This document shows, piece after piece, positions 3,405 through 42,827 of a DNA stretch of 51,305 nucleotides. The position numbers and the translations under genes were made by a program. Within the stretch, counting starts at the first letter, position 1, and the number at the start of each line of letters is the position of its first letter. This DNA comes from a virus (lineage: Duplodnaviria > Caudoviricetes): positions 1-51,305 of IMG/VR virus record IMGVR_UViG_3300030450_002582. The stretch is one strand, 5' to 3'. Below the pieces are notes generated by a model. The model had not been told where the DNA came from. It worked only from the letters and a program-made list of their open reading frames with translations, and made no database searches.

Positions 3405-3452
3405 AAAGGCGGGTGACAGTAATGGTTAACGCTGTCACTCGTCTTTTTTTTT
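3405..3452 (+). terminator. Intrinsic terminator at the convergence of the early and late blocks
   Basis: Stem GGCGGGTGACAGT / GCTGTCACTCGTC (3 G-U pairs), 10-nt loop, then T9. Confidence 0.8.
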
Positions 3453-6400
3453 AATCTATATAATTATCAATAGATTGAGCAACTTCTTTAATTGGACTTG
3501 GTAAATAAGGTCTTACCCCTTTAATTGCATTTCCACTAAAGTCATATAACCATAAAAATAAAGAAGTAAGTTCAACTGAAAATGGTAATTCTCTTAATAC
3601 ATCTTCAATAAAATCATCTGTATCATCACCGTCAATAGCTTTTATAATAGCAGATATTAAAGTTGCAATCATTAAAGTTTTAGTTACAAGTGGGCTTCCA
3701 AATCCCATTAAAGCTCTTTGATTAATTTTATTTTTTCCTACCATAGATCCAATTAATAATTGACCTTCTCTTAATATAGTATATGGAGCCCATTGTGTAT
3801 AAAGTATAAAAGAAGCTATTGAAGCCATCCCTCTTGTCATCATTAATAAAGTAGCTCTTTGAAGATTTTTATCATCTAATTCTGGATTTAATTTCATTGT
3901 TTTTTGCAATTGTGAAACTTGTTCTTTGCTCATACCCATCGCTCTCATTGTTTGCGTACCTGCTCTTATAATATTTTTACCAATTTGAAATGGCAATCTA
4001 GCTGCAATTAAAGCTCCCATAGAAGCACCTTCTCCATATTTCGCAGCCCATTCTGGAGACATAGCAGCTGATCTAAACATTTCATATTCTAATATAACTT
4101 GATTATAATCATACTGTCTCCAAAGAAATGCCTTTCCACCTACAGCTCCTCTAAACATTTTAGGATTCATTACTTGAGTAAATCCAAATAAATTAGTATA
4201 TACATAAAGCCTAGCCATTTCAACAGCTTCTGGACTATCTGTATATTTCCAATTCTTTTTTTCTGTATTTATTAAGCCCATCTCTTTAGCTTCTTTTAGT
4301 CCTTGAAAAGCTACTTCCAATCTCATTTGTTCTTCAGTTCCAGCCATTGTAAACATTTTATTTTTTAATCCAAGTGGAAACCATTGCAATTTCCAATTTA
4401 TTAATCTATTAATACCAGATTGTGTAAGCCCAAGTCTTAAATCTTTTAATCTTTTTTCTAATCTTTTTTTATCTTTAAGATTGTTTTTTGTAGGTTCATT
4501 AACAATATTATATAATTCTGTCTTTATTCTTTTTATTTCTTCAAGTTGAACTTTTTCTCCACTAACTTGACTAGATGCTCTTTTTATTAAATTATCTAAA
4601 GAATTACTTCTATTTAACCATGAATCTAAAGTAGTTGCTTTCCAAAGTGAAGCCACATCTCTTATAGGGGCTAAAGCTTCTTTCCATTCAGTACCAACTT
4701 GCATATTAATATTCATACTTAACATATCTATAAAAGCATTACCCGGGTGAAGAACTCCAGTCTCTTCAACTTGTTCTCTAATTTCAGAAGCGGTAAATCC
4801 GTCAATCCCATTTTTAACTGCATCCATAGCTTCCCAAGTTTTTTTCCATCCATAATTAATTATTTTATTTAATCTTTGAGTATTGTTTGTAACTGCAGTC
4901 CAAACACCAAGATTAGCAGCTGATAAATAACCTCTAATAATTAATCCAATTTGCTTTACTTTTTCTGGGGTAATATCTGATATATATTTACTAAGAATAT
5001 CACTAATTCTTTGATCACTATAATTTAAATTCATAAAACCAGCTTCAATATCAGCCCCACCGGAAGCAACTTTAACTTGATCAACTAAATAATTAACTAA
5101 TGGTTGATTATGTTGCAATGATAATACAGTTTTAAATAATTCAAGTTTTAATTTTGTTAATTCATTTGCTCTAAAAGCTTGATCTACATATTCGCTATGA
5201 ACAGATCTGTCTTTTCTTCTAAGTTTATTATCTGTAAATAAAGTTCTTGATTTAGTAGCTAATATCTTACTTGATAAAAACATTTGTTTTCTATCTTGAT
5301 CTGTTGAGTTTTCACCATATAGAAGATTTTCCATGTTTTCAACTATAGATTCATAATATTTTTTCTTAGACTCAAGAATAGTTATGCTATCTAAAGCTTC
5401 TGCTTTTTCAGCTAATGAAGATTCATTGCTTTTAATTATAAAATTATCAGTTGCTAATTGAGCTTCTATTTCTGGTAAATAAGATTTATTTATAGAATTT
5501 AAAGCTTCGTCCATCATACTCTGATAAATTGGGTTATCAAATTTTACATGTCCATAATTCCATCTTGATGCTTTTTTAACAAATGAATTAGATGTAGCAA
5601 AATTACCTTGAGAATCTTTAATTAAATTAAATTGCATACCTCCCATTAAATTAATAGTATCAATTAAATTTTCTATATCTTTTTTATTCCAACCACTATT
5701 TATAAGTTTTTTATTTATTCCTTTTAAAAATGTATTTAATTCTTCATTAATTTTTTGAGTTTCAACATTTAAAACTTTTTCATAAAATAATTCATTCCAT
5801 TCACGTTGCATATCAATTGCTTTCCACATACCCGGCATCCAAGCATCTGGTGGATCATATATTTTACCATTATAATCAACGCCCTTAGACCAATTTGCAT
5901 ATTTACGCTTGGGCATATCAGTGTTGGCAATAGTTTCATATTTATAAACTCTATGTTCTTGAGCTGTATAAAAACCTTCTTCTATTTCATTTTTTAATAA
6001 ATCTTTTTCTAATAATTCTTTAGTAATTGATTTATTATTTTTAATATTCTTTAAAAAATTATTCATATTGTCTGGTATTCTATATACAAGAAAGGCATTT
6101 TCTAATTCACTAGGATCTACTGAAATAGAACCTTCACTTAATTGAGACTTTCTATAATTTCTTAATATTTTTTGACCATTCGATTCTTTATGTAAAGGAA
6201 TCATAACATACTTTGAATCGGATTCTCCAATTTCATGTCTTTCTGATTCGGATTTTATATAACCAAAAAATTGTTTACCTTCCCAAGAGTTTCTCCATTT
6301 TATAAATTGTTTAGGATCCGTTGGAATATCTCTTGATATAATATTTCTAACTTCATCATGTAATAATTCTTCAGAAAATTGTTCAGCTAATTGTTTATTT

Positions 6401-7140
6401 TGTCTAGAATCAAATCCAGCAACATCAGCAGAAGTAGAAGCTTTAATAATTTCTATATTAATATTTTCAAGAGATAATGGATTTTTTTTCTGAGTAATTG
6501 GATCAACAATACTTATTTTCCAAGAATATCCTTTTTGTAAATAATTATCAAGAGCTGAAGTAGTCATTTTAACTAATTTTAAAGCTTGTCCAGTTGGGTC
6601 AAGTGAAGCACCTACTAATAATGGTTTTTTTATTGTATTTTCATAATCACTTAAATAAGGATCTTTTTCAGCTCTTTTTTCCCAAGATTGAACTTTATTT
6701 AAAATATATCTTATTTTACCAGCATCCCATTTTTCTGAATTATTTAAACCAGATAATTGCAAAGCTCCTTTTCTACTAAAAGTTGATTGACCATAAGCTT
6801 CTTGAAAAAGGCCTTGTATAAAATCAAGTCTATTGCTTACAAAATCATTAGGAACAATAAATACACTAGAATTATTTAAATGTTCAATACTTTTATTAAA
6901 AAAATGAGAAAATAATTTTTTATGTTCTAAAAATCTTTTACCTTCATTTATTATTTGCTGTTGAATAAATTTTTTATCACTTTTTTTAACAGCTTTTTTT
7001 AATTCTTTTTTTAAATTTGGTCTGTTATCAAAAGGATATTCAATTATGCGAGATATTCCGCTTTCTAAATTAACTTCTAATTCAGATCTTGCTTCTTTTG
7101 AAAGCTTAGCTGCTAATTTTTTATCATCACAAAAACTCAT
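3451..7140 (-). CDS. Large internal virion/ejection protein
   Basis: About 1229 aa, predicted helical, with hydrophobic C-terminal segments; last gene of the internal-protein cluster. The ATG at 7140 overlaps the upstream TGA (ATGA). Confidence 0.65.
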   Translation of the reverse strand: MSFCDDKKLAAKLSKEARSELEVNLESGISRIIEYPFDNRPNLKKELKKAVKKSDKKFIQQQIINEGKRFLEHKKLFSHFFNKSIEHLNNSSVFIVPNDFVSNRLDFIQGLFQEAYGQSTFSRKGALQLSGLNNSEKWDAGKIRYILNKVQSWEKRAEKDPYLSDYENTIKKPLLVGASLDPTGQALKLVKMTTSALDNYLQKGYSWKISIVDPITQKKNPLSLENINIEIIKASTSADVAGFDSRQNKQLAEQFSEELLHDEVRNIISRDIPTDPKQFIKWRNSWEGKQFFGYIKSESERHEIGESDSKYVMIPLHKESNGQKILRNYRKSQLSEGSISVDPSELENAFLVYRIPDNMNNFLKNIKNNKSITKELLEKDLLKNEIEEGFYTAQEHRVYKYETIANTDMPKRKYANWSKGVDYNGKIYDPPDAWMPGMWKAIDMQREWNELFYEKVLNVETQKINEELNTFLKGINKKLINSGWNKKDIENLIDTINLMGGMQFNLIKDSQGNFATSNSFVKKASRWNYGHVKFDNPIYQSMMDEALNSINKSYLPEIEAQLATDNFIIKSNESSLAEKAEALDSITILESKKKYYESIVENMENLLYGENSTDQDRKQMFLSSKILATKSRTLFTDNKLRRKDRSVHSEYVDQAFRANELTKLKLELFKTVLSLQHNQPLVNYLVDQVKVASGGADIEAGFMNLNYSDQRISDILSKYISDITPEKVKQIGLIIRGYLSAANLGVWTAVTNNTQRLNKIINYGWKKTWEAMDAVKNGIDGFTASEIREQVEETGVLHPGNAFIDMLSMNINMQVGTEWKEALAPIRDVASLWKATTLDSWLNRSNSLDNLIKRASSQVSGEKVQLEEIKRIKTELYNIVNEPTKNNLKDKKRLEKRLKDLRLGLTQSGINRLINWKLQWFPLGLKNKMFTMAGTEEQMRLEVAFQGLKEAKEMGLINTEKKNWKYTDSPEAVEMARLYVYTNLFGFTQVMNPKMFRGAVGGKAFLWRQYDYNQVILEYEMFRSAAMSPEWAAKYGEGASMGALIAARLPFQIGKNIIRAGTQTMRAMGMSKEQVSQLQKTMKLNPELDDKNLQRATLLMMTRGMASIASFILYTQWAPYTILREGQLLIGSMVGKNKINQRALMGFGSPLVTKTLMIATLISAIIKAIDGDDTDDFIEDVLRELPFSVELTSLFLWLYDFSGNAIKGVRPYLPSPIKEVAQSIDNYID

Positions 7141-10100
7141 GGGCAATCCTTTAATAGTTGTTCAATAGTTTTATCATTAATATCTTCATATCTTGATTGA
7201 GATTTTAAAGTTATTCTCTCGTTTGAAGCTTCCCTTAAATTAGGGCCAAATCTATTCATAAACTCAGTATAAACTCCTTGATGCATTAACGGCATTGGTA
7301 AAAGTTTTTCTACATCACGATTTCTTGAAACATTATTTTTACCATCTAATGTTAAAACACCTCTTAAAAATCTTAAAGTAGAATAAGCTTTCTGTTCTTC
7401 TGACATTTTATCCCAAGAAGGTAATCCTTTTTTCTTATCTCCTTTAAATTTCCATTTTTCTATATATTTAATTAATTCTTCTTGATATGGGTAACCAGAT
7501 GACGTAATAAGACTTTTTGTTTTGTCTTGATGGCTTACAGCATCCATCATTATATTATAAAATTCACGAGTAGATTCATTAATAAACCTTCTAGCAACTT
7601 CTTTATCTTTAGAAAATTCTTTTGTTTCTGGATACCATCTTTGAGTTTCTTTTTGTATCGTATATAAATCTTTTTGAGTTTGGACAATTCCTCTTGTAAT
7701 CCTATTTGGATGATAACCTAATGGATGATTATGTACTTTATCATTTGGATTTAAAGATTCATAATCTAATAATGATTGATGAGGTATAGACAATAATTGC
7801 TCTAATGGAGTATTTTTATTATTAAATATTATTTTATCAATTTCCATTGTATCTTTATATAAACGACTTCTTTCTCCATATCTTAATCTTCTACCATTTG
7901 CTTTATTTCTTATTATCTCACCTTGCTCCACTCCAGACATATTTGTCATTTCATGCATATCTTTACTTAATGCAAACATACTTTCTATGTCTTGAGAATT
8001 ATTATCTACATTACTAACTCCTCTTCTTGCTTGATTATGCATTAATTCTTTTCTAATTAACGAAGTCATTGTACTAACTTGTTTTAACCCTATTGGAGAT
8101 CCATTTTCTTGAGTAAACATTTTAGGAATAACAAACTTATATCCATTATATCCCCAATCTGCTAATAAAAATTCTTTTGCATTATCTACAGCTGATTGTA
8201 ATAATATATGTAATTGTTTAATTGGAGTTGTTTTTAAATATTTATCCCCAGATTCCCATTTAGATCCATCTTTATGCACTAATGTTCCCATTTTAGCTTT
8301 ATCAAGCATTTCTTGAGTAATGTCATCATTTAATTGAGCATAATTCATTATTTCAGTTTCTTTATCTGGATTTTTAGGAACAATTGTTTGCCCTCCAACT
8401 TCTGCCTTAAATCCTTTAAAATACATATCCTCTAAAAAACTTACTGAGTTCATAAGTATTCCTTGAGAATTTATACCTTTACCTAATTTGCCAGATATTG
8501 TATACATATCTGCTTTTTTAGTTAATTTATATTTTTTATCTTTTTTCTTAAAATATTCTAAACGAACAAAGCTGTCCATATTTTCAAATGCTTTTTTAAT
8601 GCTATCGGATTGCATTGCTTTAATAATGCTTTTGTCTTGATAGTTATCTCCAAAATAGGGTGCTAGTAAAAATCCATTATCACCATCGTGGTCAGCTTGC
8701 ATTTTACCTACAATAGATTCTGGATGCAGCCATGCTACTGCACCATGCCCCTTAGGCATCACTTTTTCTATTTTTGCTAGAAATACAGCGCTTGGAGCAT
8801 AAACTGGCCACCTACCTACCATTAAATATTCTTTCCTAGATCTTAATGCTTCATTAATATTATTAATTAATTCATTTCCAGTCCCATCTACATTTAATAA
8901 ATTTTGTAAAAATCTTAACATTGTTACATCATCTGCACTAATAACAACACCATCTTCTTTCTTAACTATATTTCTTGCTAAATCTGATTTTAATACTGGA
9001 TAACTTCCAAGACCCCTTCTTCTACCTCCATAAGAATTTTCTTTTAACATTCTGTTTTTAATAGATTCAGACATTCCAGTTATAATATGTGGATGCATAA
9101 ATCCATCTGAAATCATTTGACCAGGAGAAGGTTCTAATAATCTATCAACTTCACTCATTATAGAAAGACCATCAGATTTCATTTGACCCATTAAAGATCT
9201 CATAGTTTGAGAATTATTTCTTGTACTAAATAAAACATCCATATTCATTTTTGCAATAGCATTCATTTTAGTAGAAAATAAATTTCTAAGTTTATCAAAT
9301 TCTGGATTATGTAAATGAGATAACCAAGACCATGGGAATGCTGCACTATTGTGACCTTGTTGTTTAGGTATTTTAACTATACGCCTAGATTCTTCTGGTA
9401 AAGTAAGTATATCAGTTGATATTCTATTATTTAATTTAAATGACCCACTACCTCCATCTGGTTCTTTTGCTTCATCTAAAGTTCCAAACATTGTTATTCT
9501 ATTGTCTTCTGAATCAAATATTCTTATGTTGCCATTAACATTTGCAGTATATACAATTACATTATCGTTTTCATCTGTAATATAAATATCTTCTTCTGGT
9601 ACAAACTCATTATGTTTTAAAGCTAAATAATGAGTACCTTCTATTTCTTGAGTGCCTTCTTTATAATGTTTATTACCAAACTCATCATTTTTACTTATAA
9701 ATCTAATTCTTGTTTTTATTTCTCTTAATTTAGAAGAATTTGGAGAATTAGGAACTCTACCAATAGCTTCTGCAGTTTGGTCTAGGTATTCACTTTCAAC
9801 CCACAATGAACCATCTGAATGATTTTTATTTTCTAATCCACCAACATAAGAAGACAATGGTTGTTTTTTAGTAGCTGAAGTGCTATTTGGAATGCCTTTA
9901 GAAACAAATACTTTAGATTGGTCTACAATTTTAATTGTATAATCACCAGTTCCTATTGCTACTATACCATCACCATCATCTATAGCTAATCTTCTACTAT
10001 GATGAGATGCAAGAGGAGATCTCATTAAATAATCACGACCTCTCCATCTTTTTAATACTTCATGCGATAAAATATGTTGAGCTGCTGAATATTTATTACC

Positions 10101-13100
10101 TTTCGATATTTCATTTTTAATTGATTCTAAAATTTCCTTAGACATTTCATCTGTTAAGTTTCCAATGCTTATTTCATAATCTAAATAATCTCTAATACTT
10201 TGGTCATCAGATGCTACATCCATTATATCTTGACTAGCTTTAGCAATAACAAATGAAGGATTATTACTTCCAGATTTTACACCCACTACTGTTCTAGCAA
10301 ATCCATCTTGATCTGCATATTGAGAAAACTTTTTATCCCAATTTCTTACTAATGCTCCACTAAGTTCTGTGTAAGAAGGCTTTGAATAAAAAGATCCCTT
10401 CTCTTCACCTTTAAAAACATCAACAATATCTTTTAAATATATTCTACTATATTGAAAATATCCAAAATTCCAATCATAAGAATCATTATCGTAATCAAGG
10501 AAAGATACACCAGTAGTTCTTGGTAAATCTTTATTATTTCTTATGTCTTTACCATATTTAGGATGACCTCCTATTTTTGGTATAAGATTTTTAGAGTCTT
10601 TATTACTAATTTTTTTACCATCTTCAGTTAAATTAGCATACCAAAAAGAAGGTTTATTTACGGAATCTTGTCTATTAATTGGTTGATTTCTTACCCAAAA
10701 ATTCTTAACCATATTATTATCATTAATAGTTTCTGGTGTGTATTTATATTTTTTATTAAGAAAACCTAAGAAAGAATCATAATCATTTATGGAAACTTGA
10801 TCCATTAATTCAGCTGTTTGTTTTTGATCTAAAAATCCTTTTTCACTTGTAGATTCTAAAAATTTAAAAAACTTATCACCTACAAAGTCATAAGTATCAA
10901 ATGTCATATTGTTAGAAATTTCTTCAACATCGCTTATATCAGATATAGATAATCCTTCACGACTAATATCATGGCTGTCTTCAGACCCTTGATTGTCAAG
11001 AGCGTTAGATATATTTGAAACAACATTAAGGTCTGATATTTGAGCTTTTATTCTTCTACTTTTTATTCCACCAAGACCCATTAAGTCTATAATTTTTAAA
11101 GAATTATTATTACTTTTCATTTTACTAGCAATTGATGGATCTCTTTCAACAGCCCATTCATTTAATAATCTTTTAAGGGATTTTCTTTTTTCTAAATCTT
11201 CTATTACATTTAAGGAACGACTCATTGGGGGAACAAAATCTGCAATGTCAATTCCATATTGATCTTTAATAACTTTAAAAGCCCCATCTAAATATTGAAA
11301 TGCCTTAGACGGTTCCATATAATTGTCTATAACTTTTGGCAATCTAGATGTGTTTTCTATTATTTGTTCATTTATATCAGAAGAAACTTGATCTAATGGT
11401 GGTTCATTAATCCAAAATCTCATTTTATCTGGATAATAAATATTGCCATCTTTATCTGTTGCGGGTTGAGATGATACTCCATATTTAACAAATCCTTGTT
11501 TTACCCAAAAATCTTCTGAACCTGTTTTTGCTATAATTTCTATTTTGTCTCTATTTTTAGCTTTAAATAAATCTTTAAAAGCATTTACTATCTCAGTCCC
11601 AACCCCCTTATTCCTTAATTCTTCAGCAATTATAATAGTCCCAATTCTATGTGTAAATTCTGGGCCTGGGCCAGCTCTTTTTATTGTAACACCTTCCATT
11701 TTACTAAATTTTTCTATTTTCATTTCAGCTTCCATTTGAGGACTTACTTTAGGAGTCTTTGTAGGAGCTTTAGTTTTATCAGTAGTTTTTGGAGTGTCTT
11801 TTTCTTTTTTAATGCCTAATTCTTTTTCTAGTTTTAATATTGCTCTGTCAATAGATTCTAAGTTACCCTTATTTTTAGCAATAACTTTTCTTTGAGCCTT
11901 TAACCCTTTAAGTTTATTTCTTTTTTTAACTAAAGGATCTATGTCTTTTTTAACTGTTGATGGAGTTGGTTCTATAATTTTTTCTTCTTTAATTTTTTTT
12001 CTTTGTTCTTTCTCTTTTTTTCTTATCTTATTTGCTTTTTCAACAAAGTTTTCCTTAGTTATTCCTCTTTGAAGTAACATTGTTTTTACTTCTTCAATTG
12101 TTCCTTTAATTGTTCTAGATAAACCAGGCAACACATTACCAGTCTCTTCGTCTGTAATTCTATATTGATTATTATCATCTTTATAAATAAAATAATTACC
12201 TTCTGGATCCCAATCAAAATTAATATTTTTACCAGAAACACTTTTTAATTCATATTTACCTTTTGATAGTAAATTTACTTTCTTTTCCGAGTATCCTTTT
12301 TTATGTACAAGTTTTTTATCTGTTTTTTCTGCTTTAAGCTCTTTAATCGCATTTTCCATGTCTTCTATTATCAGACTTCTCACACTGTACCAAATTTTGC
12401 CTTTGCTTTCTATTTTTTCTCGCTTTTTTTGCCATTCCAATTCATTTTCCAAATGCTTTAAAGGGTTTTTTTCAAATTCTTTTAAATTCTTTTTATTTGC
12501 TTGTCTGCTTAACGACTGATGTGCAATTTGAGCTTCTTCTAATATATTATCTTCTGTTACTTCACCGCTTTTTAATTCATCTTTATACAAATCCCTAAAA
12601 TCTTCAATCAAATATTCTTTGGTTAGTTTAGCAGCATTAACAAGTTCATTTTTGTATTGTTTAACAATTGGAGATTCTGTTTCTATTGTAGATTCTGTAG
12701 TGGGTGATTCTTCTTTTCTAATAAATTTTTGAGTTTGTTGTTTTGCTTTAAACTCAGCAATGGCATCTTTTATTTCATTTATATTAAGAGTTGTTCCTCG
12801 GCTTTTACCCTCTTTCTTTTCTAAATCATACCAGCTCTGTAAATCTTTTTCCATGTATGCCAAAGGGTCTTTATCATATTCTTTTAATTGTTTTCCTAGG
12901 ACTCTTTTATAATTTTCTAACTGAGATTCTGTTTCTATCGTAGGATCAGTTTTTGATGGCATTACGCCTTTTTGCTTATCAATTGCTTGCTCAGTCTGTT
13001 TATCAATTTCTCTTTCAATTTGTTGGTCAACTTGTTTTTCAATAGACTTATCAACTTCACCAAAAACATGCCTATCTAATGAAGATTGAATTTGATTATT

Positions 13101-15329
13101 AATTGCATTATCTATATTAATATTGAATGTACTAGATAAATAATTTTTAGTAGACGTAGAAGTTGCTGATTCTCCAAGATTTTCAGATATTTCTGATTCA
13201 TATGCTTGAATTACACTATCTAATAAAGACTTATCTGTAATACTAATTTTTCTATTTTGTTTTTTAGTATTGCCTTTTGCTTTTTTACTTTCAATAGATA
13301 TTTTATTATCTAATATTGCTTGTATAATATTTGGATTATCTCCAAAAACTTTTAATAACTCTGGACTTAAAGATTCAACAGTTCCAATTAAATAATCATT
13401 TACGTCATTTAAAACATTATTATCTATTTTATTAATCTCATTTTGCCCAATACTTTTTATAGCTTCAGAAAATTTTTCAGCGGGCGTTGCCATGCCATAT
13501 GTATCTTGTTGTTTAATAAGAGAGGCTAATCGAGATTTAGTATCTTTAGTCCTATCAACATTAACTTTAACATCCATAAATGGATTTATTAATTCTCTAA
13601 AATAATTTTCAGCATTTAACAATGCATTAGTTTCTATTACTGGAGAATCCAATAACATAGACTCATTATCAAATCTCGCATTAGGAACTCCAGTTTCAAT
13701 ACCATAATTATCATTTAATATTCTATTCGCTTTATTGTCAAATTTATTCCATTTAAATGCTTGATGAACATAACCAGCAGTTGTTATTCCAGCTCCCATT
13801 AATGCTCCACCTACTACACTTTCATGCATTTCAGCTGGGTCAACTAAGGGATGAGAAGATGGATCTAATAATATAGAAGCTAAATTAGTTGTACCTTCAT
13901 CTTTATACCCAGCTTCACTCATGACTTGCCCACCATACTGAACATATTCTTGAAAACCTTCAGCAACTGGATCTCTTAATGGTCTGATAATATATCCACT
14001 TAATTTACCAATTTGTGTATTTTTTAAATTTCTTAAAGCTTGAACTCTCTCAGGTGTAGCAATATTTTTTGTATATAAATTTCTTAAAAATTTAGATTTA
14101 GCTGATGCATTTACAGCTGGGGCAAATTTTTTCATAATTCTACTCATTCCCCATCCTTCAGTAGCAACTGTAAATGCTATTTGAGTAGCACTAGAATAAG
14201 CAGCGTTAGATTTAGCAAGTTCTTCATCTCCAGTTTTATCTAAAGTCCATTGATATGCTTCATTATAAGCTCCAGTAGCAACTAATGGTACATGGCCAGC
14301 AGTTCCAATAAACGCAGCAGCTCCAGGCCCCAAAAATGATAAAGCAGCCAGAGATCCACCCATTATTGCAATTGATGGGACCATTGAAAAAACTGTATCA
14401 AGAAAATATTCGGGAGATTTAAATGACGTAAACCAATCAACTGGTTTTTGAGAAACATATTGACTATAGGCTTGAAATCTTAAATCTTTTTCTTGTCTTT
14501 TTTGTATTTTTTCAATATGATTTATTGAAGTTTCTTCAGCCCATTCATTTATTTCTATTAATGTATTTAAAAAACCTTGATTAACTTCTTTACGCAATCC
14601 TTTATTTTCTCTTTCTTGTTGCTCTTCTTTCCAATTATTTAATTCTATACCATATTTTTTAAGAGTTTCAAAATAATCTGGATTTTGTTCTCTTGCATAT
14701 GCATAATCTTCTTTTGTTGCTGGGCCAATAAAATCATCACCTGCAAATCCATAATCTTCAGAATCCTTATCCCAAACAAAATCTGGCCTTTTTGTTTTTT
14801 CAATTTTAATTTGATCTTCAGCCATTTTATTATAATTATCGCTAAAGAAATCTGATAATTGAGTTAATTTTTCATCATCTTTTTTTATAGCATCAATAAG
14901 CAATTCTGAAACAGTTGCTATTGCTTTAGGGACTCCACCACTATAATCTTCCATCATAGAACCAGAAAGATTCCATCTTTCAGAAATATTAAAATCTAAA
15001 TTATGGTAAGCTGATTTTTCTTTTAAAGGAGATAGGTCTGCAACATTATCTATAAGGTATTTTGCTCTCTCGGATCTATCTTGAAAATAATTAGCACCTT
15101 CATCTGTCCATTTGAAAGGAAATTGAGTTTCCATTTCATTAGTCTCTGGATTTGGTACTCTTTCATATTGAGTAATATCATATTCTCCAGCTTTCTCCCA
15201 GAGAATGGGCATATTTTTTTCTATATCATCCGCTAATTCATCTAATCCCTTCATTCCTTCTGGGATTATGGGTTCTTCGTCTAGGTTATCTGTTGAAGCT
15301 AGCCAAGCTGGTGCTAATAATTGAGGCAT
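7137..15329 (-). CDS. 2730-aa virion protein: membrane segments + GNAT acetyltransferase + single-chain two-barrel RNA polymerase
   Basis: ADHDGD (8679..8696) preceded by GRWP (8805..8816) and LHP; HSDG (SDG at 9810..9818); QGILMN (8448..8465); AVDNAK (8175..8192); GNAT motif RNKGVGT (11595..11615) followed by FWVKQGF. Confidence 0.85.
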   Translation of the reverse strand: MPQLLAPAWLASTDNLDEEPIIPEGMKGLDELADDIEKNMPILWEKAGEYDITQYERVPNPETNEMETQFPFKWTDEGANYFQDRSERAKYLIDNVADLSPLKEKSAYHNLDFNISERWNLSGSMMEDYSGGVPKAIATVSELLIDAIKKDDEKLTQLSDFFSDNYNKMAEDQIKIEKTKRPDFVWDKDSEDYGFAGDDFIGPATKEDYAYAREQNPDYFETLKKYGIELNNWKEEQQERENKGLRKEVNQGFLNTLIEINEWAEETSINHIEKIQKRQEKDLRFQAYSQYVSQKPVDWFTSFKSPEYFLDTVFSMVPSIAIMGGSLAALSFLGPGAAAFIGTAGHVPLVATGAYNEAYQWTLDKTGDEELAKSNAAYSSATQIAFTVATEGWGMSRIMKKFAPAVNASAKSKFLRNLYTKNIATPERVQALRNLKNTQIGKLSGYIIRPLRDPVAEGFQEYVQYGGQVMSEAGYKDEGTTNLASILLDPSSHPLVDPAEMHESVVGGALMGAGITTAGYVHQAFKWNKFDNKANRILNDNYGIETGVPNARFDNESMLLDSPVIETNALLNAENYFRELINPFMDVKVNVDRTKDTKSRLASLIKQQDTYGMATPAEKFSEAIKSIGQNEINKIDNNVLNDVNDYLIGTVESLSPELLKVFGDNPNIIQAILDNKISIESKKAKGNTKKQNRKISITDKSLLDSVIQAYESEISENLGESATSTSTKNYLSSTFNINIDNAINNQIQSSLDRHVFGEVDKSIEKQVDQQIEREIDKQTEQAIDKQKGVMPSKTDPTIETESQLENYKRVLGKQLKEYDKDPLAYMEKDLQSWYDLEKKEGKSRGTTLNINEIKDAIAEFKAKQQTQKFIRKEESPTTESTIETESPIVKQYKNELVNAAKLTKEYLIEDFRDLYKDELKSGEVTEDNILEEAQIAHQSLSRQANKKNLKEFEKNPLKHLENELEWQKKREKIESKGKIWYSVRSLIIEDMENAIKELKAEKTDKKLVHKKGYSEKKVNLLSKGKYELKSVSGKNINFDWDPEGNYFIYKDDNNQYRITDEETGNVLPGLSRTIKGTIEEVKTMLLQRGITKENFVEKANKIRKKEKEQRKKIKEEKIIEPTPSTVKKDIDPLVKKRNKLKGLKAQRKVIAKNKGNLESIDRAILKLEKELGIKKEKDTPKTTDKTKAPTKTPKVSPQMEAEMKIEKFSKMEGVTIKRAGPGPEFTHRIGTIIIAEELRNKGVGTEIVNAFKDLFKAKNRDKIEIIAKTGSEDFWVKQGFVKYGVSSQPATDKDGNIYYPDKMRFWINEPPLDQVSSDINEQIIENTSRLPKVIDNYMEPSKAFQYLDGAFKVIKDQYGIDIADFVPPMSRSLNVIEDLEKRKSLKRLLNEWAVERDPSIASKMKSNNNSLKIIDLMGLGGIKSRRIKAQISDLNVVSNISNALDNQGSEDSHDISREGLSISDISDVEEISNNMTFDTYDFVGDKFFKFLESTSEKGFLDQKQTAELMDQVSINDYDSFLGFLNKKYKYTPETINDNNMVKNFWVRNQPINRQDSVNKPSFWYANLTEDGKKISNKDSKNLIPKIGGHPKYGKDIRNNKDLPRTTGVSFLDYDNDSYDWNFGYFQYSRIYLKDIVDVFKGEEKGSFYSKPSYTELSGALVRNWDKKFSQYADQDGFARTVVGVKSGSNNPSFVIAKASQDIMDVASDDQSIRDYLDYEISIGNLTDEMSKEILESIKNEISKGNKYSAAQHILSHEVLKRWRGRDYLMRSPLASHHSRRLAIDDGDGIVAIGTGDYTIKIVDQSKVFVSKGIPNSTSATKKQPLSSYVGGLENKNHSDGSLWVESEYLDQTAEAIGRVPNSPNSSKLREIKTRIRFISKNDEFGNKHYKEGTQEIEGTHYLALKHNEFVPEEDIYITDENDNVIVYTANVNGNIRIFDSEDNRITMFGTLDEAKEPDGGSGSFKLNNRISTDILTLPEESRRIVKIPKQQGHNSAAFPWSWLSHLHNPEFDKLRNLFSTKMNAIAKMNMDVLFSTRNNSQTMRSLMGQMKSDGLSIMSEVDRLLEPSPGQMISDGFMHPHIITGMSESIKNRMLKENSYGGRRRGLGSYPVLKSDLARNIVKKEDGVVISADDVTMLRFLQNLLNVDGTGNELINNINEALRSRKEYLMVGRWPVYAPSAVFLAKIEKVMPKGHGAVAWLHPESIVGKMQADHDGDNGFLLAPYFGDNYQDKSIIKAMQSDSIKKAFENMDSFVRLEYFKKKDKKYKLTKKADMYTISGKLGKGINSQGILMNSVSFLEDMYFKGFKAEVGGQTIVPKNPDKETEIMNYAQLNDDITQEMLDKAKMGTLVHKDGSKWESGDKYLKTTPIKQLHILLQSAVDNAKEFLLADWGYNGYKFVIPKMFTQENGSPIGLKQVSTMTSLIRKELMHNQARRGVSNVDNNSQDIESMFALSKDMHEMTNMSGVEQGEIIRNKANGRRLRYGERSRLYKDTMEIDKIIFNNKNTPLEQLLSIPHQSLLDYESLNPNDKVHNHPLGYHPNRITRGIVQTQKDLYTIQKETQRWYPETKEFSKDKEVARRFINESTREFYNIMMDAVSHQDKTKSLITSSGYPYQEELIKYIEKWKFKGDKKKGLPSWDKMSEEQKAYSTLRFLRGVLTLDGKNNVSRNRDVEKLLPMPLMHQGVYTEFMNRFGPNLREASNERITLKSQSRYEDINDKTIEQLLKDCP

Positions 15330-19352: not shown

Positions 19353-22295
19353 TTAGCTACTACTTGTTTCAGTTACCACAGCTGCTGTTGTAATAGGTCT
19401 ATACCTAATTGCAATACTAATTATTTCTAAATAAGTTTCAGTAGTTCCAGCACTTGCAATTCTTAAGGAAATACTTCTGCATTTAATTGGAATAGAATCA
19501 GATGGTGTTATTTTTAATATATTAACATTGTCTTTATTGCTACTTCCACTTAAAGCTTGGTCTTCTACTAATACATTAGATCCACTATTAGGATAATCAT
19601 TGCCATCTTTTTCATACATTACATCAATAGTGTCACTTGTACTATCTGTAATATATTCTATATCAATTTCATATATTTTTTTAAATATATTAGGCATTCC
19701 AAAATCATCATCTTTTGTTATTAATATAAATGCTGAATTATTAGTTGAAGTAAAACTTAATTTTCTTAAATCTTTATTATTAGATGACCCAGTAGCGGGA
19801 TCTGTATATATTAATAAACCTCCATAGGGAAGAATAGAAGCGTCTCCAGCATCTTGAATCTCATTGCCAATAAAATTTAACATATTACTTTGACTTGTGC
19901 TTGATCCACCTGGAATTAACCAATAAGGATTAACAGTAAGTGGATAACCATTGCTCCATGATTGAGTGTCTATATCGAACATTTTCATTTTAGTAGGTGC
20001 TTTAACATTATCAGAAAGTATAATTTTATTAGAACTACTATCCCATCCAATACCAGGCCCTCTATCATCGCTAGATCCAGCTGAATAAAAATCTGTCCAA
20101 TCTTCATAGCTAATTTTTTGATTAGATATATTTTTAGGTTGATTATTAACCATCATATATAAGCCACTTTTTGTTACCCAAAAAATACCTAAAGATGATT
20201 TTGTTATTCCCCAAGGCCCACTAACTCCTAATCCATCATATTTAGCAATTAATTTCCAAGAAGCTTCATTTGGATTAGATACGTCAATTAAATATAAAGC
20301 ATTCTTTTTAAAAGCAAATAAAACTCCATTAACATATTCTAAAGCAACAAATTCATCTCCATCATTACCAGCTATATTTAATCTATAAGAAGGTGGAAAA
20401 GTATCATATTTTCCAACCGGTGTATAAAATATTGCATCACCCATAGTCCTTGCTAATCCACTATCTGGATCAACATAACTAGCATTTGCAACAAATATTC
20501 TTTGACCAGCTACAACAGAAGCTTTATATCCATAACCTGCAGATTCACCAAAAGTTAAAGCATATTCATTTGCAGAATATCCATTAAGGTTTTCATAAGT
20601 TTCTACACCTAAAGATTTTATTTCATATTGCTTACTTTTAAGGGCTGTAAAATTTGTATCAGTCCATCCCATATTCTCACCACCAGTATCCGCATCTCTA
20701 GCAGTTTCCCAATCATCATAATCATCAATAGTAGTTAATCTAGTTCCCCCACCAACTGCTCCAGAATTATAATTAGTCCTATAATCTATATCCATTAATA
20801 ATGACCATGGAGCATCGTCATTTACTCTTCTCATATAAATACGACCACCAATAATTCTTTTATCAATATATGTATTATTTTCACTAAGATTACTAAGTCC
20901 AGACATATGTACTTTAGCATAAATAAGTCTTTCATCTCTGACTTCAAGATTCTTTCCTTCAAATTTAGTTATTAAAGATTCTTGATTTCCTTCATATATA
21001 AAACTTTGACCAAATTCATAATCATCTTCAACAAATAATCCACCATCAGCTTCCCCAGATGTAAAAACTTCTAAAAGGGCTCCATCACCTGGAAATGGAT
21101 ATATTTCATAAGATCTTCCATCCCAACTTACACTATTTGCTGATGTAGTAAGAACAGATTGTTCTTCATCAGCTACAGCTGTTATTTTCCAAACATCATT
21201 ATTTGACACATCATAAGCAACAAGCCATCTACTACCACTATTAGCAGCTGATACACCAGATGTCCATTCTTGGAATTGTTGTCCATCATCTGTGACAATC
21301 CATGTTCCCGACGCTGGGTCGTGATCTTGTACATATGGACATTCTACCCAAAAATTATTTGCATCAATTCTAATTAATAATTTATAAATACCATTATATC
21401 CACTAAAATCATCGTCACTAGATCCTGCGTTTATAATTCTTATCCATTTATGATCTGGATGATAAGTAGATCCATCACTACTAAATTTAAAATCTTCATC
21501 TATTAAACCATGAGATGTGTCTGTAATATTAATATTATGCAATCCTAAATTATAATCGAGGTAGCCATCACCAGAGGTAGTATCTGAAGCTTTTCCAATA
21601 TTATTTGCAACTCCACTTGTAAGAACTGGTTGCTTTCCAATTAAAGCAGTTGTACTTGATGAAGTAGCTCCGCTAGTTTGAGAAGAAGCTGATGGGCAAG
21701 TAGCAGATAGATTTAAAGTATGAAATCCAACAGTTGGTTTATTAAGAGTATTTGATGTAGAAATCCATTCCCTATCAAGCTCAACTCCTAATAATTTTTT
21801 CTTTGTATCTGTTCCTATTCTACCAAACCATTTAACAGTATTATTTGTATCAAAAGATGCATCAGCAACTCTAAGAGCTCCATCTGCATAATAAAACTCA
21901 GCTTGCATAGCAGTTCCACTTCCAAGATCAAGAATATTTTCTTGCATCATATGATCATCTTGGTCAGCTGCATCATTATATCCAAATAAATCTATTTGAC
22001 TATTTGATTTATCAGCAACACAAATATATTCACTCTCTCTTAAACTTAAAGTATTAACAGTATCAGAGTATGAATAATCTGATTTAAAAGAAAAAAGACC
22101 TCGACCTGGATATATTGTAGCTGAATGATCATCAACTCCTCTAAGGGAAGAAGGTTTAATTGTTCTTAAAGCTCCTCTTTCATCACACATTACTCCTTGA
22201 GCTTCAACAACTTCATTTTCTTTTATAAACTTAGAATTTACTTTTGTATTTACACCACCAGAAAAATCTCTATATATTTGATACCTTTTAGGCAT
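19353..22295 (-). CDS. Tail nozzle / tubular protein B-like (P22 gp10 / T7 gp12 class)
   Basis: Starts MPKRYQIYRDFSGGVNT; beta-propeller-like segments (RIFVAN, LFAFKKNALY, GIFWVTKSGLY); 980 aa; podovirus tail position. Confidence 0.7.
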   Translation of the reverse strand: MPKRYQIYRDFSGGVNTKVNSKFIKENEVVEAQGVMCDERGALRTIKPSSLRGVDDHSATIYPGRGLFSFKSDYSYSDTVNTLSLRESEYICVADKSNSQIDLFGYNDAADQDDHMMQENILDLGSGTAMQAEFYYADGALRVADASFDTNNTVKWFGRIGTDTKKKLLGVELDREWISTSNTLNKPTVGFHTLNLSATCPSASSQTSGATSSSTTALIGKQPVLTSGVANNIGKASDTTSGDGYLDYNLGLHNINITDTSHGLIDEDFKFSSDGSTYHPDHKWIRIINAGSSDDDFSGYNGIYKLLIRIDANNFWVECPYVQDHDPASGTWIVTDDGQQFQEWTSGVSAANSGSRWLVAYDVSNNDVWKITAVADEEQSVLTTSANSVSWDGRSYEIYPFPGDGALLEVFTSGEADGGLFVEDDYEFGQSFIYEGNQESLITKFEGKNLEVRDERLIYAKVHMSGLSNLSENNTYIDKRIIGGRIYMRRVNDDAPWSLLMDIDYRTNYNSGAVGGGTRLTTIDDYDDWETARDADTGGENMGWTDTNFTALKSKQYEIKSLGVETYENLNGYSANEYALTFGESAGYGYKASVVAGQRIFVANASYVDPDSGLARTMGDAIFYTPVGKYDTFPPSYRLNIAGNDGDEFVALEYVNGVLFAFKKNALYLIDVSNPNEASWKLIAKYDGLGVSGPWGITKSSLGIFWVTKSGLYMMVNNQPKNISNQKISYEDWTDFYSAGSSDDRGPGIGWDSSSNKIILSDNVKAPTKMKMFDIDTQSWSNGYPLTVNPYWLIPGGSSTSQSNMLNFIGNEIQDAGDASILPYGGLLIYTDPATGSSNNKDLRKLSFTSTNNSAFILITKDDDFGMPNIFKKIYEIDIEYITDSTSDTIDVMYEKDGNDYPNSGSNVLVEDQALSGSSNKDNVNILKITPSDSIPIKCRSISLRIASAGTTETYLEIISIAIRYRPITTAAVVTETSSS

Positions 22296-38251: not shown

Positions 38252-38452
38252 TTATTTATATTTTTTTTGAGACATTAAAGTGTCTAATTTTTTAGGAGCA
38301 AATGATTTACCTTTTGGCATAAAAGATTGCCAATATGAATGCTTTGGTCCTCCTACATCTATTTCAGTAGAACCCATTTTAGATCTTGTTTCCAAAGATG
38401 ATTTACCCATGCTTTTGGGATTTTCAATATTATGTGTACTCTTTCCAGCCAT
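38252..38452 (-). CDS. Small basic hypothetical protein
   Basis: Part of track ORF 38252..38467; the likely ATG at 38452 overlaps the terL stop (TAATG). Confidence 0.55.
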   Translation of the reverse strand: MAGKSTHNIENPKSMGKSSLETRSKMGSTEIDVGGPKHSYWQSFMPKGKSFAPKKLDTLMSQKKYK

Positions 38453-40026: not shown

Positions 40027-40189
40027 CTAAAAATTCTTGAAATTCATCTTCAAGTCCTTGCATTTCAACAAAATTACTAAACACTGTTTCAAATTTTGTT
40101 ATTCTTTCTATTGAATAATACATAGCTTTTTCAAGTTCTTGAATATTTCTTTTAATATCGTGCTTACTGTATGTTTTTCTTTTTTTCAT
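39989..40189 (-). CDS. Hypothetical protein (66 aa)
   Basis: SD GGAG; lies in the late operon. Confidence 0.6.
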   Translation of the reverse strand: MKKRKTYSKHDIKRNIQELEKAMYYSIERITKFETVFSNFVEMQGLEDEFQEFLDGKYKQEEHKQS

Positions 40190-40310
40190 ATTCTCCTTCC
40201 AATTTCCAATTCATTACTTGACAGTATTGAACTGCATCATCTAATCCCCTTGCCCAAAATTTATAACCATCAGTTGATACATATCTGGTATAATTCCCAG
40301 ATATATGCAA
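40164..40310 (-). CDS. Small hypothetical protein
   Basis: Part of track ORF 40164..40373; probable TTG start at 40310 just after the SNase stop (MHISGNYTRYVSTDGYKFWARG...). Confidence 0.5.
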   Translation of the reverse strand: MHISGNYTRYVSTDGYKFWARGLDDAVQYCQVMNWKLEGEYEKKKNIQ

Positions 40311-40320
40311 TCCTTTCTCT

Positions 40321-40704: not shown

Positions 40705-40717
40705 TTCTTAATTTAAC

Positions 40718-41767: not shown

Positions 41768-41778
41768 TACTTTCTCCT

Positions 41779-42770: not shown

Positions 42771-42798
42771 TATTTTTTCCCTTCCCTACCACCCTATT

Positions 42799-42827
42799 AA
42801 TTTAAACCATAAGTCAACTATAATCAA
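42799..42827 (-). promoter_or_regulatory. Sigma70-type promoter of the late (packaging/structural) operon
   Basis: TTGATT-17 bp-TAAATT on the - strand at the strand switch. Confidence 0.6.

What the first reader, a model, noticed from the sequence alone, without database searches (positions are those of the whole stretch)
7137..10900. Single-chain two-barrel virion RNA polymerase hidden in the giant internal protein, with a DHDGD catalytic motif
Seen: the C-terminal ~1200 aa of the 2730-aa ORF contain, in order, HSDGSLWV (aa ~1838), EIKTR and LALKH lysines, GGRRRGLGSYPVL, GRWP (R2173)...LHPESIVGKMQADHDGD (D2213-D2217), NSQGILMN and LLQSAVDNAKE (aa ~2380). Established: cellular beta' has NRxPTLH...LHPLVCAAYNADFDGD; eukaryotic RNAi polymerases (QDE-1 family) have an SDG-type motif, DxDGD, LGxIxN and AVDxxK; the crAss-like phi14:2 gp66 virion RNAP is a single-chain enzyme of this fold. 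Inference: this is a packaged, ejected DNA-dependent RNAP with a His at the variable position of the catalytic motif, which annotation would probably leave as hypothetical.
Basis: partly seen in the sequence, partly recalled or inferred. Interest (0 to 1): 0.93.

Follow-up and report, generated by a model that had tools for sequence, protein, structure and literature searches.

The report
Hidden RNA polymerase in a giant phage protein

Summary
The motifs cover 6% of the last 1,200 residues. They hold 11 of the 21 columns that are at least 95% conserved in 73 relatives, including D2213, D2215 and D2217. Pfam, PHROGs and PDB sequence searches find no polymerase.

The gene closes the structural operon of a 51-kb marine phage that shows no crAss-like capsid or portal similarity. 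A conserved 1,229-aa partner gene follows it.

Virion packaging, DNA templating and catalytic activity are inferred, not shown. The His in DHDGD is not conserved (18 of 73). I read this as a new, unannotated family of a known enzyme kind.

The parts
7137..15329 (-). Giant ORF, 2,730 aa (P0001): conserved N-terminal module, variable middle, C-terminal RNA polymerase
   Evidence: start ATG with AAGGA 8 nt upstream; 44 relatives of 1,558-3,944 aa
13170..15329 (-). N-terminal module, aa 1-720, conserved in relatives, mostly helical, fold unknown
   Evidence: 23-44% identity to 19 relatives, with invariant columns; AF2 model of low confidence, pLDDT 60.1; no fold match, best E 0.33
14295..14405 (-). 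Only strongly hydrophobic segment, aa 309-345; possible membrane-inserting stretch (inference)
   Evidence: Kyte-Doolittle scan, 19-aa window, mean >1.4; S319 is invariant in relatives
11730..12932 (-). Lys/Glu-rich variable linker, about aa 800-1200
   Evidence: K+E fraction 0.26-0.38 per 100 aa; no consensus in the alignment of 15 relatives
11478..11663 (-). Probable GNAT acetyltransferase core, aa 1223-1284
   Evidence: Pfam PF13673 E 3.4e-4, 21 bits, below the 23.6-bit cut-off; PF13673 found in 6 of 15 relatives, best E 4.2e-12; phrog_1249 acetyltransferase E 0.0012; weak GCN5/NAT hits in PDB, E 0.15
7140..10739 (-). Single-chain two-barrel RNA polymerase module as modelled, aa 1531-2730; conservation already starts near aa 1350
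9372..9854 (-). First (beta-type) barrel region, about aa 1826-1986, with invariant D1839, G1840, K1872, K1905; boundaries inferred
   Evidence: beta-strand-rich stretch, model residues 296-456; it lies inside the alignments to single-chain RNAPs; conservation; hhalign pairs HSDG with gp66 QTDA at 961
8571..9029 (-). Second (beta'-type, catalytic) double-psi beta-barrel, aa 2101-2253, with R2103, R2173, P2175 and the metal-binding motif
8679..8693 (-). DHDGD, aa 2213-2217, predicted Mg-binding Asp triad
   Evidence: D 73/73, D 73/73, G 69/73, D 72/73; aligned with gp66 DFDID 1361-1365, whose Asp-to-Ala mutants lack activity (preprint 10.1101/2020.03.07.982082, passage)
8418..8516 (-). Long helix pair, aa 2272-2304, holding GINSQGILMN; bridge-helix candidate (inference)
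   Evidence: helices at model residues 742-756 and 758-774; Q2289 62/73, G2290 67/73, N2294 67/73; resembles gp66 GVGITAN at 1546, inside the published bridge helix 1529-1559; hhalign did not pair the two
8172..8204 (-). LLQSAVDNAKE, aa 2376-2386, trigger-loop-base candidate
   Evidence: D2382 73/73, K2385 65/73; hhalign pairs it with gp66 FVDNAKD at 1610, inside the published trigger loop 1598-1636
3451..7140 (-). Conserved partner gene, 1,229 aa from the ATG at 7140; its ATG overlaps the giant ORF's TGA (ATGA)
   Evidence: a 1,211-1,263-aa homologue (28-54% identity) follows the giant gene in 6 of 6 related loci examined; no Pfam or PHROG hit; no BLASTP similarity to phi14:2 gp65

Best explanation
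The C-terminal ~1,200 residues (aa ~1531-2730, window 7140-10739, minus strand) of the 2,730-aa protein are a single-chain two-barrel RNA polymerase. It belongs to the clade that holds crAss-like phage phi14:2 gp66 and the eukaryotic RNAi polymerases QDE-1 and RDR2.

Proposed anatomy:
- A beta-type barrel (about aa 1826-1986) carries the invariant D1839-G1840, K1872 and K1905.
- It faces a beta'-type barrel (aa 2101-2253) that carries R2103, R2173-x-P2175 and the Mg-binding triad D2213/D2215/D2217.
- Bridge-helix-like and trigger-loop-like elements follow (about aa 2272-2304 and 2369-2390).

The polymerase is the last module of a multi-domain protein. Before it come a conserved N-terminal module with one hydrophobic segment, a variable Lys/Glu-rich middle and a probable GNAT acetyltransferase. 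The gene is the second-to-last gene of the phage's structural operon and is translationally coupled (ATGA overlap) to a conserved 1,229-aa partner.

Most likely mechanism (inferred):
1. The protein is made late and packed into the capsid.
2. It is ejected with the DNA.
3. Once in the cell it transcribes the first phage genes, independently of host RNA polymerase, as gp66 does for phi14:2 and gp50 does for N4.

What is shown: the motifs, their conservation, the predicted fold, the homology to gp66 at profile and structure level, and the gene context. What is inferred: packaging, ejection, DNA templating, catalytic activity and which genes are transcribed.
For: Motifs and conservation:
- All motifs are present.
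- 11 of the 21 near-invariant columns of 1,200 fall in them, and the Asp triad is kept in 73/73/72 of 73.
- D.DGD occurs in 44 of 44 close homologues.

Fold:
- AF2 model pLDDT 87.6, pTM 0.84.
- Foldseek against PDB gives 18 matches at E<=1e-3. The 15 listed are gp66 (E 1.2e-10), QDE-1 (1e-7 to 4e-6) or RDR2.
- VIA without Foldseek, against 48,161 chains: rows 1-17 are all RNAPs, followed by generic and designed DPBB domains on model 576-695.
- BFVD gives 25 matches at E<=1e-3. Rows 1-3 are unnamed viral proteins with TM 0.72-0.81; lower rows include crAss-like phage proteins and phi14:2 S0A2C3.

Homology to gp66:
- Local hhalign of 73 family cores against 50 crAss-like RNAP cores: Prob 88.9%, E 2.4e-6. 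It pairs GRWP with YRIPNQ, DHDGD with DFDID and AVDNAKE with FVDNAKD.
- Reversed-template control: E 0.73.

Context:
- The gene lies downstream of terminase, portal, capsid-like, tail-fibre and internal-virion-protein genes on the same strand.
- The order giant gene then ~1,200-aa partner is kept in 6 of 6 related loci and mirrors phi14:2 gp66 then gp65.
- None of the 26 other ORFs (100 aa or longer) put through Pfam or PHROGs hit an RNA polymerase family, and the six-frame PF00940 search of the genome found nothing, although its control rang nowhere.
- GNATs are a frequent module of head-packaged polyvalent proteins (PMC5512222, passages).
Against: - No sequence method that annotation uses sees a polymerase. 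Pfam hits 0 of 33 members at E<=10, PHROGs finds none, and PDB phmmer and profile hmmsearch find none. phmmer with gp66 and hmmsearch with the crAss-like profile hit 0 of 128 family proteins at E<=10.
- hhalign with gp66 as a single sequence gave only Prob 2.8%, E 0.016.
- The fold evidence rests on a predicted model, not a solved structure. The rmsd of the long alignments is 4-7 A.
- Nothing here shows that the protein is in virions. The N-terminal module gave a poor model and no fold match.
- The capsid-like and portal proteins and the partner show no BLASTP similarity to phi14:2 gp91, gp93 and gp65, so the analogy cannot lean on shared ancestry of the whole module.
- No repeated promoter-like motif was found.
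- QDE-1-type enzymes also copy RNA, so the template type is open.
Confidence: 0.75

Rival explanations
1. It is an active two-barrel polymerase but not a virion enzyme for early transcription. It might act inside the infected cell after late synthesis, for example as a replication primase or RNA primer synthase, as an RNA-dependent polymerase like QDE-1, or as the enzyme for middle or late transcription.
For: The fold and active site are the same as in the best explanation. The closest folds include enzymes that copy RNA (QDE-1, RDR2). No primase or DNA polymerase was recognised among the ORFs scanned. Nothing here shows packaging.
Against: The gene sits at the end of the structural operon, after an internal-virion-protein gene, not in the plus-strand replication block that holds DnaB, resolvase and nucleases. 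It is fused to modules typical of ejected polyvalent proteins. The only characterised phage enzyme of this clade, gp66, is virion-borne.
Confidence: 0.13
2. It is a structural or ejection protein that keeps a polymerase-like fold but no longer polymerises.
For: One of 73 relatives has DFDGN in place of the third Asp. The published gp66 crystal structure shows a self-inhibited conformation. No activity data exist.
Against: The Asp triad is kept in 72 of 73. The other near-invariant residues cluster in the two barrels. That pattern is expected for purifying selection on catalysis, not on a scaffold.
Confidence: 0.06
3. The motifs are a chance resemblance in a large low-complexity protein.
For: A single D.DGD is not rare in 2,730 residues (my estimate is about 0.04 expected). 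No sequence family search hits an RNAP.
Against: There is a confident model, and independent fold searches are dominated by RNAPs. Profile-profile E is 2.4e-6 against 0.73 for the reversed control. The motifs are the best-conserved sites.
Confidence: 0.01

Closest known systems
Virion RNA polymerase gp66 of crAss-like Cellulophaga phage phi14:2 (PDB 6VR4)
   Different: No HMMER-level similarity. The motif is D-x-D-G-D, whereas all 50 crAss-like sequences sampled have DFDID, and the preprint states that all crAss-like RNAPs carry Ile or Val at position 4. The distance from the triad to the bridge-helix candidate is about 72 residues against 185. The polymerase sits at the C-terminus of a longer protein that also carries a GNAT. 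The host phage is 51 kb rather than 100 kb, and its capsid-like and portal proteins show no BLASTP similarity.
Eukaryotic RNAi polymerases QDE-1 (2J7N, 7Y7x) and RDR2 (7W82, 7W84, 7EU1)
   Different: No Pfam RdRP hit in 0 of 33 members. Phage context. Fused to other modules. Sequence identity in the structural alignments is only 9-11%.
Phage N4 gp50 and other Schitoviridae virion RNA polymerases
   Same: A functional analogue: a giant (~3,500 aa) multi-module protein packed in the capsid and ejected to transcribe early genes (abstracts of PMC13434306 and PMC11445570, search listing). The best tblastn hits of the terminase here are about 25% identical podovirus-sized phages, among them Enterobacter phage EcP1 and Acinetobacter phage nACB1, which I recall as N4-like; one search does not give their family.
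   Different: The N4 polymerase is of the T7-like single-subunit type (title of reference 36 of PMC5512222), which is an unrelated fold. No PF00940 match in this genome.
P23-45/P74-26 single-chain RNAPs (gp64/gp62) and the tape-measure-fused gp96
   Different: Foldseek E-values are weaker (2.5e-3 to 5e-3). Those enzymes are much smaller (about 590 aa) or are N-terminal fusions to a tape measure.
Polyvalent proteins of phages and conjugative elements (Iyer et al. 2017, PMC5512222)
   Same: A giant multi-domain protein in a structural gene context. It carries a GNAT, and relatives have swapped-in enzymatic domains: cpYpsA SLOG, HATPase_c_3, DUF7831. The language-model search gives leads to LPD22, LPD38 and LPD39 clusters.
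   Different: The passages I retrieved from that paper (terms 'RNA polymerase', 'RdRP') do not mention a two-barrel RNAP module. The LPD links are low-share leads, not tested homology.

Membership tests
Single-chain two-barrel RNA polymerases (gp66 / QDE-1 clade) | Two double-psi beta-barrels in one chain forming the active-site cleft | tested here: met
   This was tested on a predicted model (pLDDT 87.6). Alignments to gp66, QDE-1, RDR2 and P74 gp62 span model residues ~18-1009 or more. The second barrel is also matched by beta'-type chains and by isolated DPBB domains at 571-723. The first barrel is supported only through the whole-chain alignments.
Single-chain two-barrel RNA polymerases (gp66 / QDE-1 clade) | DxDxD metal-binding triad in the beta'-type barrel | tested here: met
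   DHDGD at aa 2213-2217. Kept in 73/73/72 of 73. Aligned with gp66 DFDID.
Single-chain two-barrel RNA polymerases (gp66 / QDE-1 clade) | Bridge helix and trigger loop after the catalytic barrel | tested here: inconclusive
   AVDNAKE pairs with gp66 FVDNAKD (residue 1610, within the published trigger loop 1598-1636). The bridge-helix candidate (aa 2272-2304) rests on motif resemblance to gp66 GVGITAN at 1546 and on predicted helices. hhalign did not pair them.
Single-chain two-barrel RNA polymerases (gp66 / QDE-1 clade) | Template-dependent, Mg-dependent NTP polymerisation | not testable with these tools
   This needs biochemistry.
Virion-packaged phage RNA polymerases | Protein present in purified virions and ejected into the host | not testable with these tools
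   There is only indirect support: the gene lies in the structural operon after an internal-virion-protein gene, and the protein has a polyvalent architecture.
crAss-like phage RNAP family (gp66 orthologues) | DFDxD motif with Ile or Val at position 4 (preprint passage) | tested here: not met
   This protein has Gly, and 69 of 73 relatives have Gly. All 50 crAss-like sequences sampled have DFDID. Four distant relatives of this family do carry D-x-D-I-D.
crAss-like phage RNAP family (gp66 orthologues) | Sequence-level homology to gp66 | tested here: not met
   phmmer with gp66 and hmmsearch with a 50-sequence crAss-like profile gave 0 hits at E<=10 among 128 family proteins. PDB phmmer and hmmsearch gave no 6VR4 hit. 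Homology appears only at the profile-profile (E 2.4e-6) and fold level.
Crassvirales (the phage, not the enzyme) | Capsid, portal and terminase related to those of crAss-like phages | tested here: inconclusive
   BLASTP of the capsid-like and portal proteins against phi14:2 gp91 and gp93 gave E 0.64 and 0.037. None of the 15 listed terminase hits, all at about 25% identity, is a crAss-like phage. BLASTP is too weak to exclude distant kinship, and no phylogeny was made.
Eukaryotic RdRP family (Pfam PF05183) | Match to the family profile | tested here: not met
   No hit for P0001 at E<=1, and none in 0 of 33 members at E<=10. The fold similarity is nevertheless the highest by VIA Z.
GNAT acetyltransferases (middle module, aa 1223-1284) | Match to a GNAT profile above the curated cut-off | tested here: inconclusive
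   PF13673 scores 21 bits against a cut-off of 23.6, and PF00583 19.8 against 20.7. 6 of 15 relatives match PF13673, best E 4.2e-12. PDB GCN5/NAT hits are at E 0.15.
Polyvalent proteins (Iyer et al. 2017) | Several unrelated enzymatic or effector domains in one giant protein of a phage structural module | tested here: met
   The RNAP module plus a probable GNAT occur in this protein. Other enzymatic domains sit at the same place in relatives. LPD domain membership was not established (searches give leads only).

The most novel reading that the evidence does not exclude
This family is an independent, ancient lineage of phage two-barrel RNA polymerases and not a divergent crAss-like enzyme. It keeps the ancestral D-x-D-G-D active site, and it, rather than gp66, is the closest surviving phage relative of the eukaryotic RNAi polymerases. 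Supporting points: RDR2 gives the top VIA Z in both searches, and Gly stands at position 4. If so, small (~51-58 kb) marine phages outside Crassvirales would mark the kind of donor from which eukaryotes took their RdRP. Delivery of a polymerase and an acetyltransferase on one ejected chain would then be a new type of takeover device.
Probability: 0.12. Interest if true: 0.8.

Novelty: new member of a known kind. Interest (0 to 1): 0.6.

Why it matters
Virion-borne two-barrel RNA polymerases have been shown experimentally in only a few phages, namely crAss-like phi14:2, the P23-45 tape-measure fusion and jumbo phages (abstracts; passages). This finding matters for four reasons.

- **A separate family.** It is invisible to Pfam and PHROGs. 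It has 88 clusters at 50% identity. It is carried by uncultured ~51-58 kb phages; 13 IMG/VR loci hold relatives, and near-identical DNA stands in runs labelled marine or aquatic metagenome.
- **Wider use of host-independent early transcription.** This strategy would be used outside Crassvirales, Schitoviridae and jumbo phages.
- **A second phage reference point for the origin of eukaryotic RNAi polymerases.** This family has the canonical Gly-containing active-site motif.
- **Annotation.** It gives annotators a handle on thousands of 'hypothetical' giant proteins in ocean viromes.

It does not change the concept. The enzyme kind and the proposed mechanism are already known.

Tried and rejected
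**Sequence searches that found no polymerase**
- Pfam on P0001 at E<=1 and on 33 members at E<=10.
- PHROGs.
- PDB phmmer and PDB profile search with A1.
- tblastn of aa 1477-2730 and megablast of the gene against 50,697 phage records: no match.
- tblastn of distant members: P0059 gave no match, and P0074 matched only with its N-terminal parts.

**Kinship with phi14:2**
- BLASTP of the capsid-like, portal and partner proteins against gp91, gp93 and gp65 gave nothing significant.

**N-terminal module**
- The AF2 model was poor (pLDDT 60.1).
- Foldseek's best E was 0.33, so no statement on its fold is possible.
- The language-model atlas returned only unnamed viral clusters, with low-share LPD22, LPD38 and LPD39 leads.

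**Promoters**
- No repeated motif family stood out.
- Sigma-70-like sites were not enriched: 63 found against 73.4 +/- 8.3 in shuffles.

**Other checks**
- T7-type RNAP: PF00940 was not found in the genome, but the control rang in no genome, so this is weak.
- No tRNA genes. No exact terminal repeat.
- Host: two MAG contigs, labelled Woesearchaeota and Bacteroidetes, hold relatives at 29-31% identity. They are short contigs and are likely binned viral DNA, so no host call is made.
- The search for related loci with P0074 and with P0045 found nothing.
- Sequencing runs: no RNA holder is listed. DNA holders are labelled marine or aquatic metagenome.
- Complex prediction was not used, because the chains exceed its size limit.

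**Literature**
- Seven searches turned up no description of this family.
- The 23 two-barrel families of Chaban et al. 2024 are named only in a figure and in Supplementary Data 3, and supplements are closed. The Nature version of Drobysheva et al. (PMC12127119) is not held. The family may therefore already be listed there.
- The pelagiphage preprint 10.1101/2019.12.14.876532 and the review PMC7619455 gave nothing relevant.

**Considered and rejected**
- A special role for the His in DHDGD (kept in only 18 of 73).
- Membership of the crAss-like RNAP family.

Full report
**What is in the sequence**

The window is a whole IMG/VR virus record: 51,305 bp, one contig, classed as linear, CheckV completeness 92%. 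G+C content is about 30%. It has no tRNA gene and no exact terminal repeat.

The ORF at 7137..15329 on the minus strand encodes 2,730 aa. Its start is an ATG with AAGGA 8 nt upstream.

DHDGD is at aa 2213-2217, window 8679-8693.

**Relatives and conservation**

A word-indexed search with aa 1700-2730 found 44 other proteins of 1,558-3,944 aa. They are 43-73% identical over that part, plus one at 23%. The five that carry a name have 'hypothetical protein' (3) or a Tara gene-call line (2), plus one RelE label; the rest have none.

An exhaustive HMMER search with aa 1531-2730 found 88 clusters at 50% identity with E<=1e-3. Of these, 65 reach 1e-10 and 25 reach 1e-30.

D-x-D-G-D is present in all 44 close homologues, with H, Y, N, Q, F, A, S or T at the variable place.

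I kept the 73 sequences whose match spans more than 750 residues of the query. In that alignment only 21 of 1,200 columns are at least 95% identical. The eleven are D1839, G1840, K1872, K1905, R2103, R2173, P2175, D2213, D2215, D2217 and D2382.

| Motif position | Conservation in 73 sequences |
|---|---|
| D2213 | 73/73 |
| variable position (H in this protein) | H 18/73 |
| D2215 | 73/73 |
| G2216 | 69/73 |
| D2217 | 72/73 |

Four distant members have D-x-D-I-D and one has DFDGN. The His is incidental.

**Why annotation misses it**

- Pfam finds only a sub-threshold GNAT at aa 1223-1284.
- PHROGs finds the same.
- No member of a 33-sequence alignment hits any RNA polymerase family in Pfam, even at E<=10.
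- phmmer of the protein and a profile of the family against all PDB sequences find no polymerase.
- tblastn against 50,697 phage records finds nothing.

**Fold**

AlphaFold2 was run on aa 1531-2730 with the 33-row alignment A1. It gave mean pLDDT 87.6 and pTM 0.84.

*Foldseek against the PDB.* There are 18 matches at E<=1e-3. The 15 listed are:
- phi14:2 gp66 (6vr4_A), E 1.2e-10, probability 1.0;
- QDE-1, E 1.2e-7 to 4.2e-6, TM normalised to target 0.37-0.50;
- RDR2.

Beta' subunits and the P23-45-type enzymes follow at about 1e-3.

*VIA-align on Foldseek's top 1,000 chains.* Only RNA polymerases appear among the 50 entries listed:

|---|---|---|---|---|
| maize RDR2 | 14.3 | 542 | 4.1 | |
| gp66 | 12.5 | 800 | 5.1 | model 1-1148 against chain 318-1966 |
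| QDE-1 | 11.9 | 699 | 7.3 | |
| P74 gp62 | 12.2 | 455 | | |

Beta'-type chains of AR9 and PhiKZ fall on model residues 571-723 (aa 2101-2253) at rmsd 2.5-2.8 A. The largest subunits of Pol I, Pol II, bacterial, ASFV and plastid RNAPs start at model residues 546-572 and often run further.

*BFVD, predicted viral structures.* Three unnamed viral proteins match at E 1e-41 to 1e-45 (TM 0.72-0.81, 16-18% identity). Further unnamed viral proteins and crAss-like phage proteins follow at about 1e-11. phi14:2 S0A2C3 is at 7.5e-5.

**Homology to the crAss-like enzyme**

With gp66 as a single sequence, hhalign aligned only the catalytic stretch, weakly (Prob 2.8%, E 0.016).

I then fetched 80 loci encoding gp66 relatives and aligned 50 non-identical cores. 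All 50 carry DFDID. I compared that profile with the 73-sequence profile of this family.

- The result was Prob 88.9%, E 2.4e-6.
- 428 columns aligned under default settings, covering query 217-701 against gp66 863-1379. This spans both barrels.
- 1,018 columns aligned in the greedy mode.
- The pairs are GRWP with YRIPNQ, DHDGD with DFDID, HSDG with QTDA, and AVDNAKE with FVDNAKD at gp66 1610.
- The preprint places the gp66 trigger loop at 1598-1636 and the bridge helix at 1529-1559 (passage).
- A reversed-template control gave E 0.73.
- HMMER sees nothing between the two families: 0 hits at E<=10.

The relationship is therefore real but very distant.

**Rest of the protein**

- The N-terminal ~700 residues are conserved in relatives.
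- They hold the only strongly hydrophobic segment, aa 309-345.
- Their model was poor (pLDDT 60.1) and had no fold match.
- Residues ~800-1200 are Lys/Glu-rich and variable.
- At the place of the probable GNAT, 6 of 15 relatives have a clear GNAT (best E 4.2e-12).
- Single relatives carry a cpYpsA SLOG domain, DUF7831, a GHKL ATPase or a KOW motif.

This is the architecture that Iyer et al. 2017 call polyvalent proteins. According to the passages I read, GNATs are common in them (PMC5512222).

**Context**

On the same strand, upstream of the giant gene, lie these genes:

| Gene | Window coordinates |
|---|---|
| small terminase | 41779-42570 |
| large terminase | 38452-40026 |
| portal | 35625-37868 |
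| weak major-head-protein match | 33067-34662 |
| tail-fibre-like protein, 1,443 aa | 25122-29453 |
| internal-virion-protein match | 19353-22295 |

The plus strand holds a Dam-type methyltransferase, DnaB, a resolvase and a Cas4-like nuclease.

The giant gene's TGA (7139-7137) overlaps the ATG (7140-7138) of a 1,229-aa gene. In 6 of 6 related loci examined, the giant gene is followed by a 1,211-1,263-aa homologue of this partner (28-54% identity). Convergent resolvase, DnaB and methyltransferase genes come next. The ORF at the window's right end lies next to the methyltransferase in three of these six relatives (L093, L094, L095), so the two ends of the window are contiguous in the genome.

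The order giant polymerase gene then large partner mirrors gp66 then gp65 of phi14:2. However, the partner, capsid-like and portal proteins show no BLASTP similarity to the phi14:2 proteins. None of the 15 listed terminase hits, all about 25% identical, is a crAss-like phage.

None of the 26 other ORFs (100 aa or longer) put through Pfam or PHROGs hit an RNA polymerase family. The PF00940 search was empty, but its control rang nowhere.

Related IMG/VR contigs reach 55.7-57.7 kb. Near-identical DNA occurs in runs labelled marine metagenome (one study, possibly the source) and, at 0.39 of the sampled words, in one run of another study labelled aquatic metagenome.

**Reading**

The evidence supports an intact single-chain two-barrel RNA polymerase of the gp66/QDE-1 clade at the C-terminus of a polyvalent protein.

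The following are inferences from gene position, architecture and the gp66 and N4 precedents:
- that the protein is packed in the capsid and ejected;
- that it transcribes early genes from DNA;
- that the bridge-helix assignment is correct.

The enzyme is not a member of the crAss-like RNAP family as that family is recognised. It has Gly rather than Ile or Val at position 4, and there is no HMMER-level similarity. It fails the Pfam RdRP profile as well. It works like these enzymes without belonging to either sequence family.

**Novelty and limits**

Seven literature searches found no description of this family. However, the list of 23 two-barrel RNAP families in Chaban et al. 2024 is given only in a figure and a supplement, which I could not see. 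The final Nature version of the gp66 paper is not held.

I therefore file the finding as a new member of a known kind, of moderate-to-high interest.

The boldest reading still open is that this lineage, and not the crAss-like one, is the nearest phage relative of eukaryotic RNAi polymerases. The RDR2-first ranking in VIA and the Gly in the motif support it. Foldseek's gp66-first ranking speaks against it. I put it at about 0.12.

Noticed in passing
window 7137-7155 (minus strand): The giant ORF ends ...AAG GAT TGC CCA TGA. The partner's ATG overlaps the TGA (ATGA), and an AAGGA lies 8 nt upstream of that ATG, inside the giant ORF's last codons. The C-terminal K-D-C-P is kept in relatives (C2729 is nearly invariant). 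The reason may be that the DNA doubles as the partner's ribosome-binding site. The same AAGGATTGC string precedes the giant ORF's own ATG at 15329.
   Followed up: partly
homologues P0002, P0004, P0008, P0041 and others (middle regions): The middle of the giant protein is a swap site. Different relatives carry a GNAT (6 of 15), a cpYpsA SLOG domain, DUF7831, a GHKL ATPase or a KOW motif. One is labelled RelE by its source.
   Followed up: partly
P0065, P0074, P0086, P0088, P0053: Four distant family members have Ile at position 4 of the Asp motif (DYDID, DFDID, DHDID), as crAss-like enzymes do. One has DFDGN and so lacks the third Asp.
   Followed up: no
window 50932-51303 and 75-974: The open-ended ORF at the right end of the window lies next to the methyltransferase gene in three of the six related loci examined (L093, L094, L095). 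The window's two ends are therefore contiguous in the genome, which is circularly permuted or nearly complete.
   Followed up: partly
window 43209-43232 (+): A run of eight G forms a strong G+C-rich hairpin followed by a T-run. It is terminator-like, sits in a 30% G+C genome, and lies in the gene-poor stretch 42570-44430 between the two divergent gene blocks. Terminator-like sites are enriched in 40000-51305: 18 found against 3.8 +/- 2.2 in shuffles, although many of the 18 are variants of this one site.
   Followed up: no
L096, L097: Relatives of the polymerase (29-31% identity) sit on short contigs of MAGs labelled Woesearchaeota and Bacteroidetes. These are probably viral contigs swept into the bins.
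   Followed up: no
P0074 aa 979-1216 and 1531-1701: The N-terminal parts of this distant relative match structural proteins of Flavobacterium psychrophilum phages (27% identity) and a hypothetical protein of a Vibrio phage (40% identity). Its polymerase part matches nothing in the phage collection.
   Followed up: no
window 44430-45866 (+): A 478-aa ORF in the replication block has no Pfam or PHROG match. No DNA polymerase or primase was recognised among the ORFs scanned.
   Followed up: no
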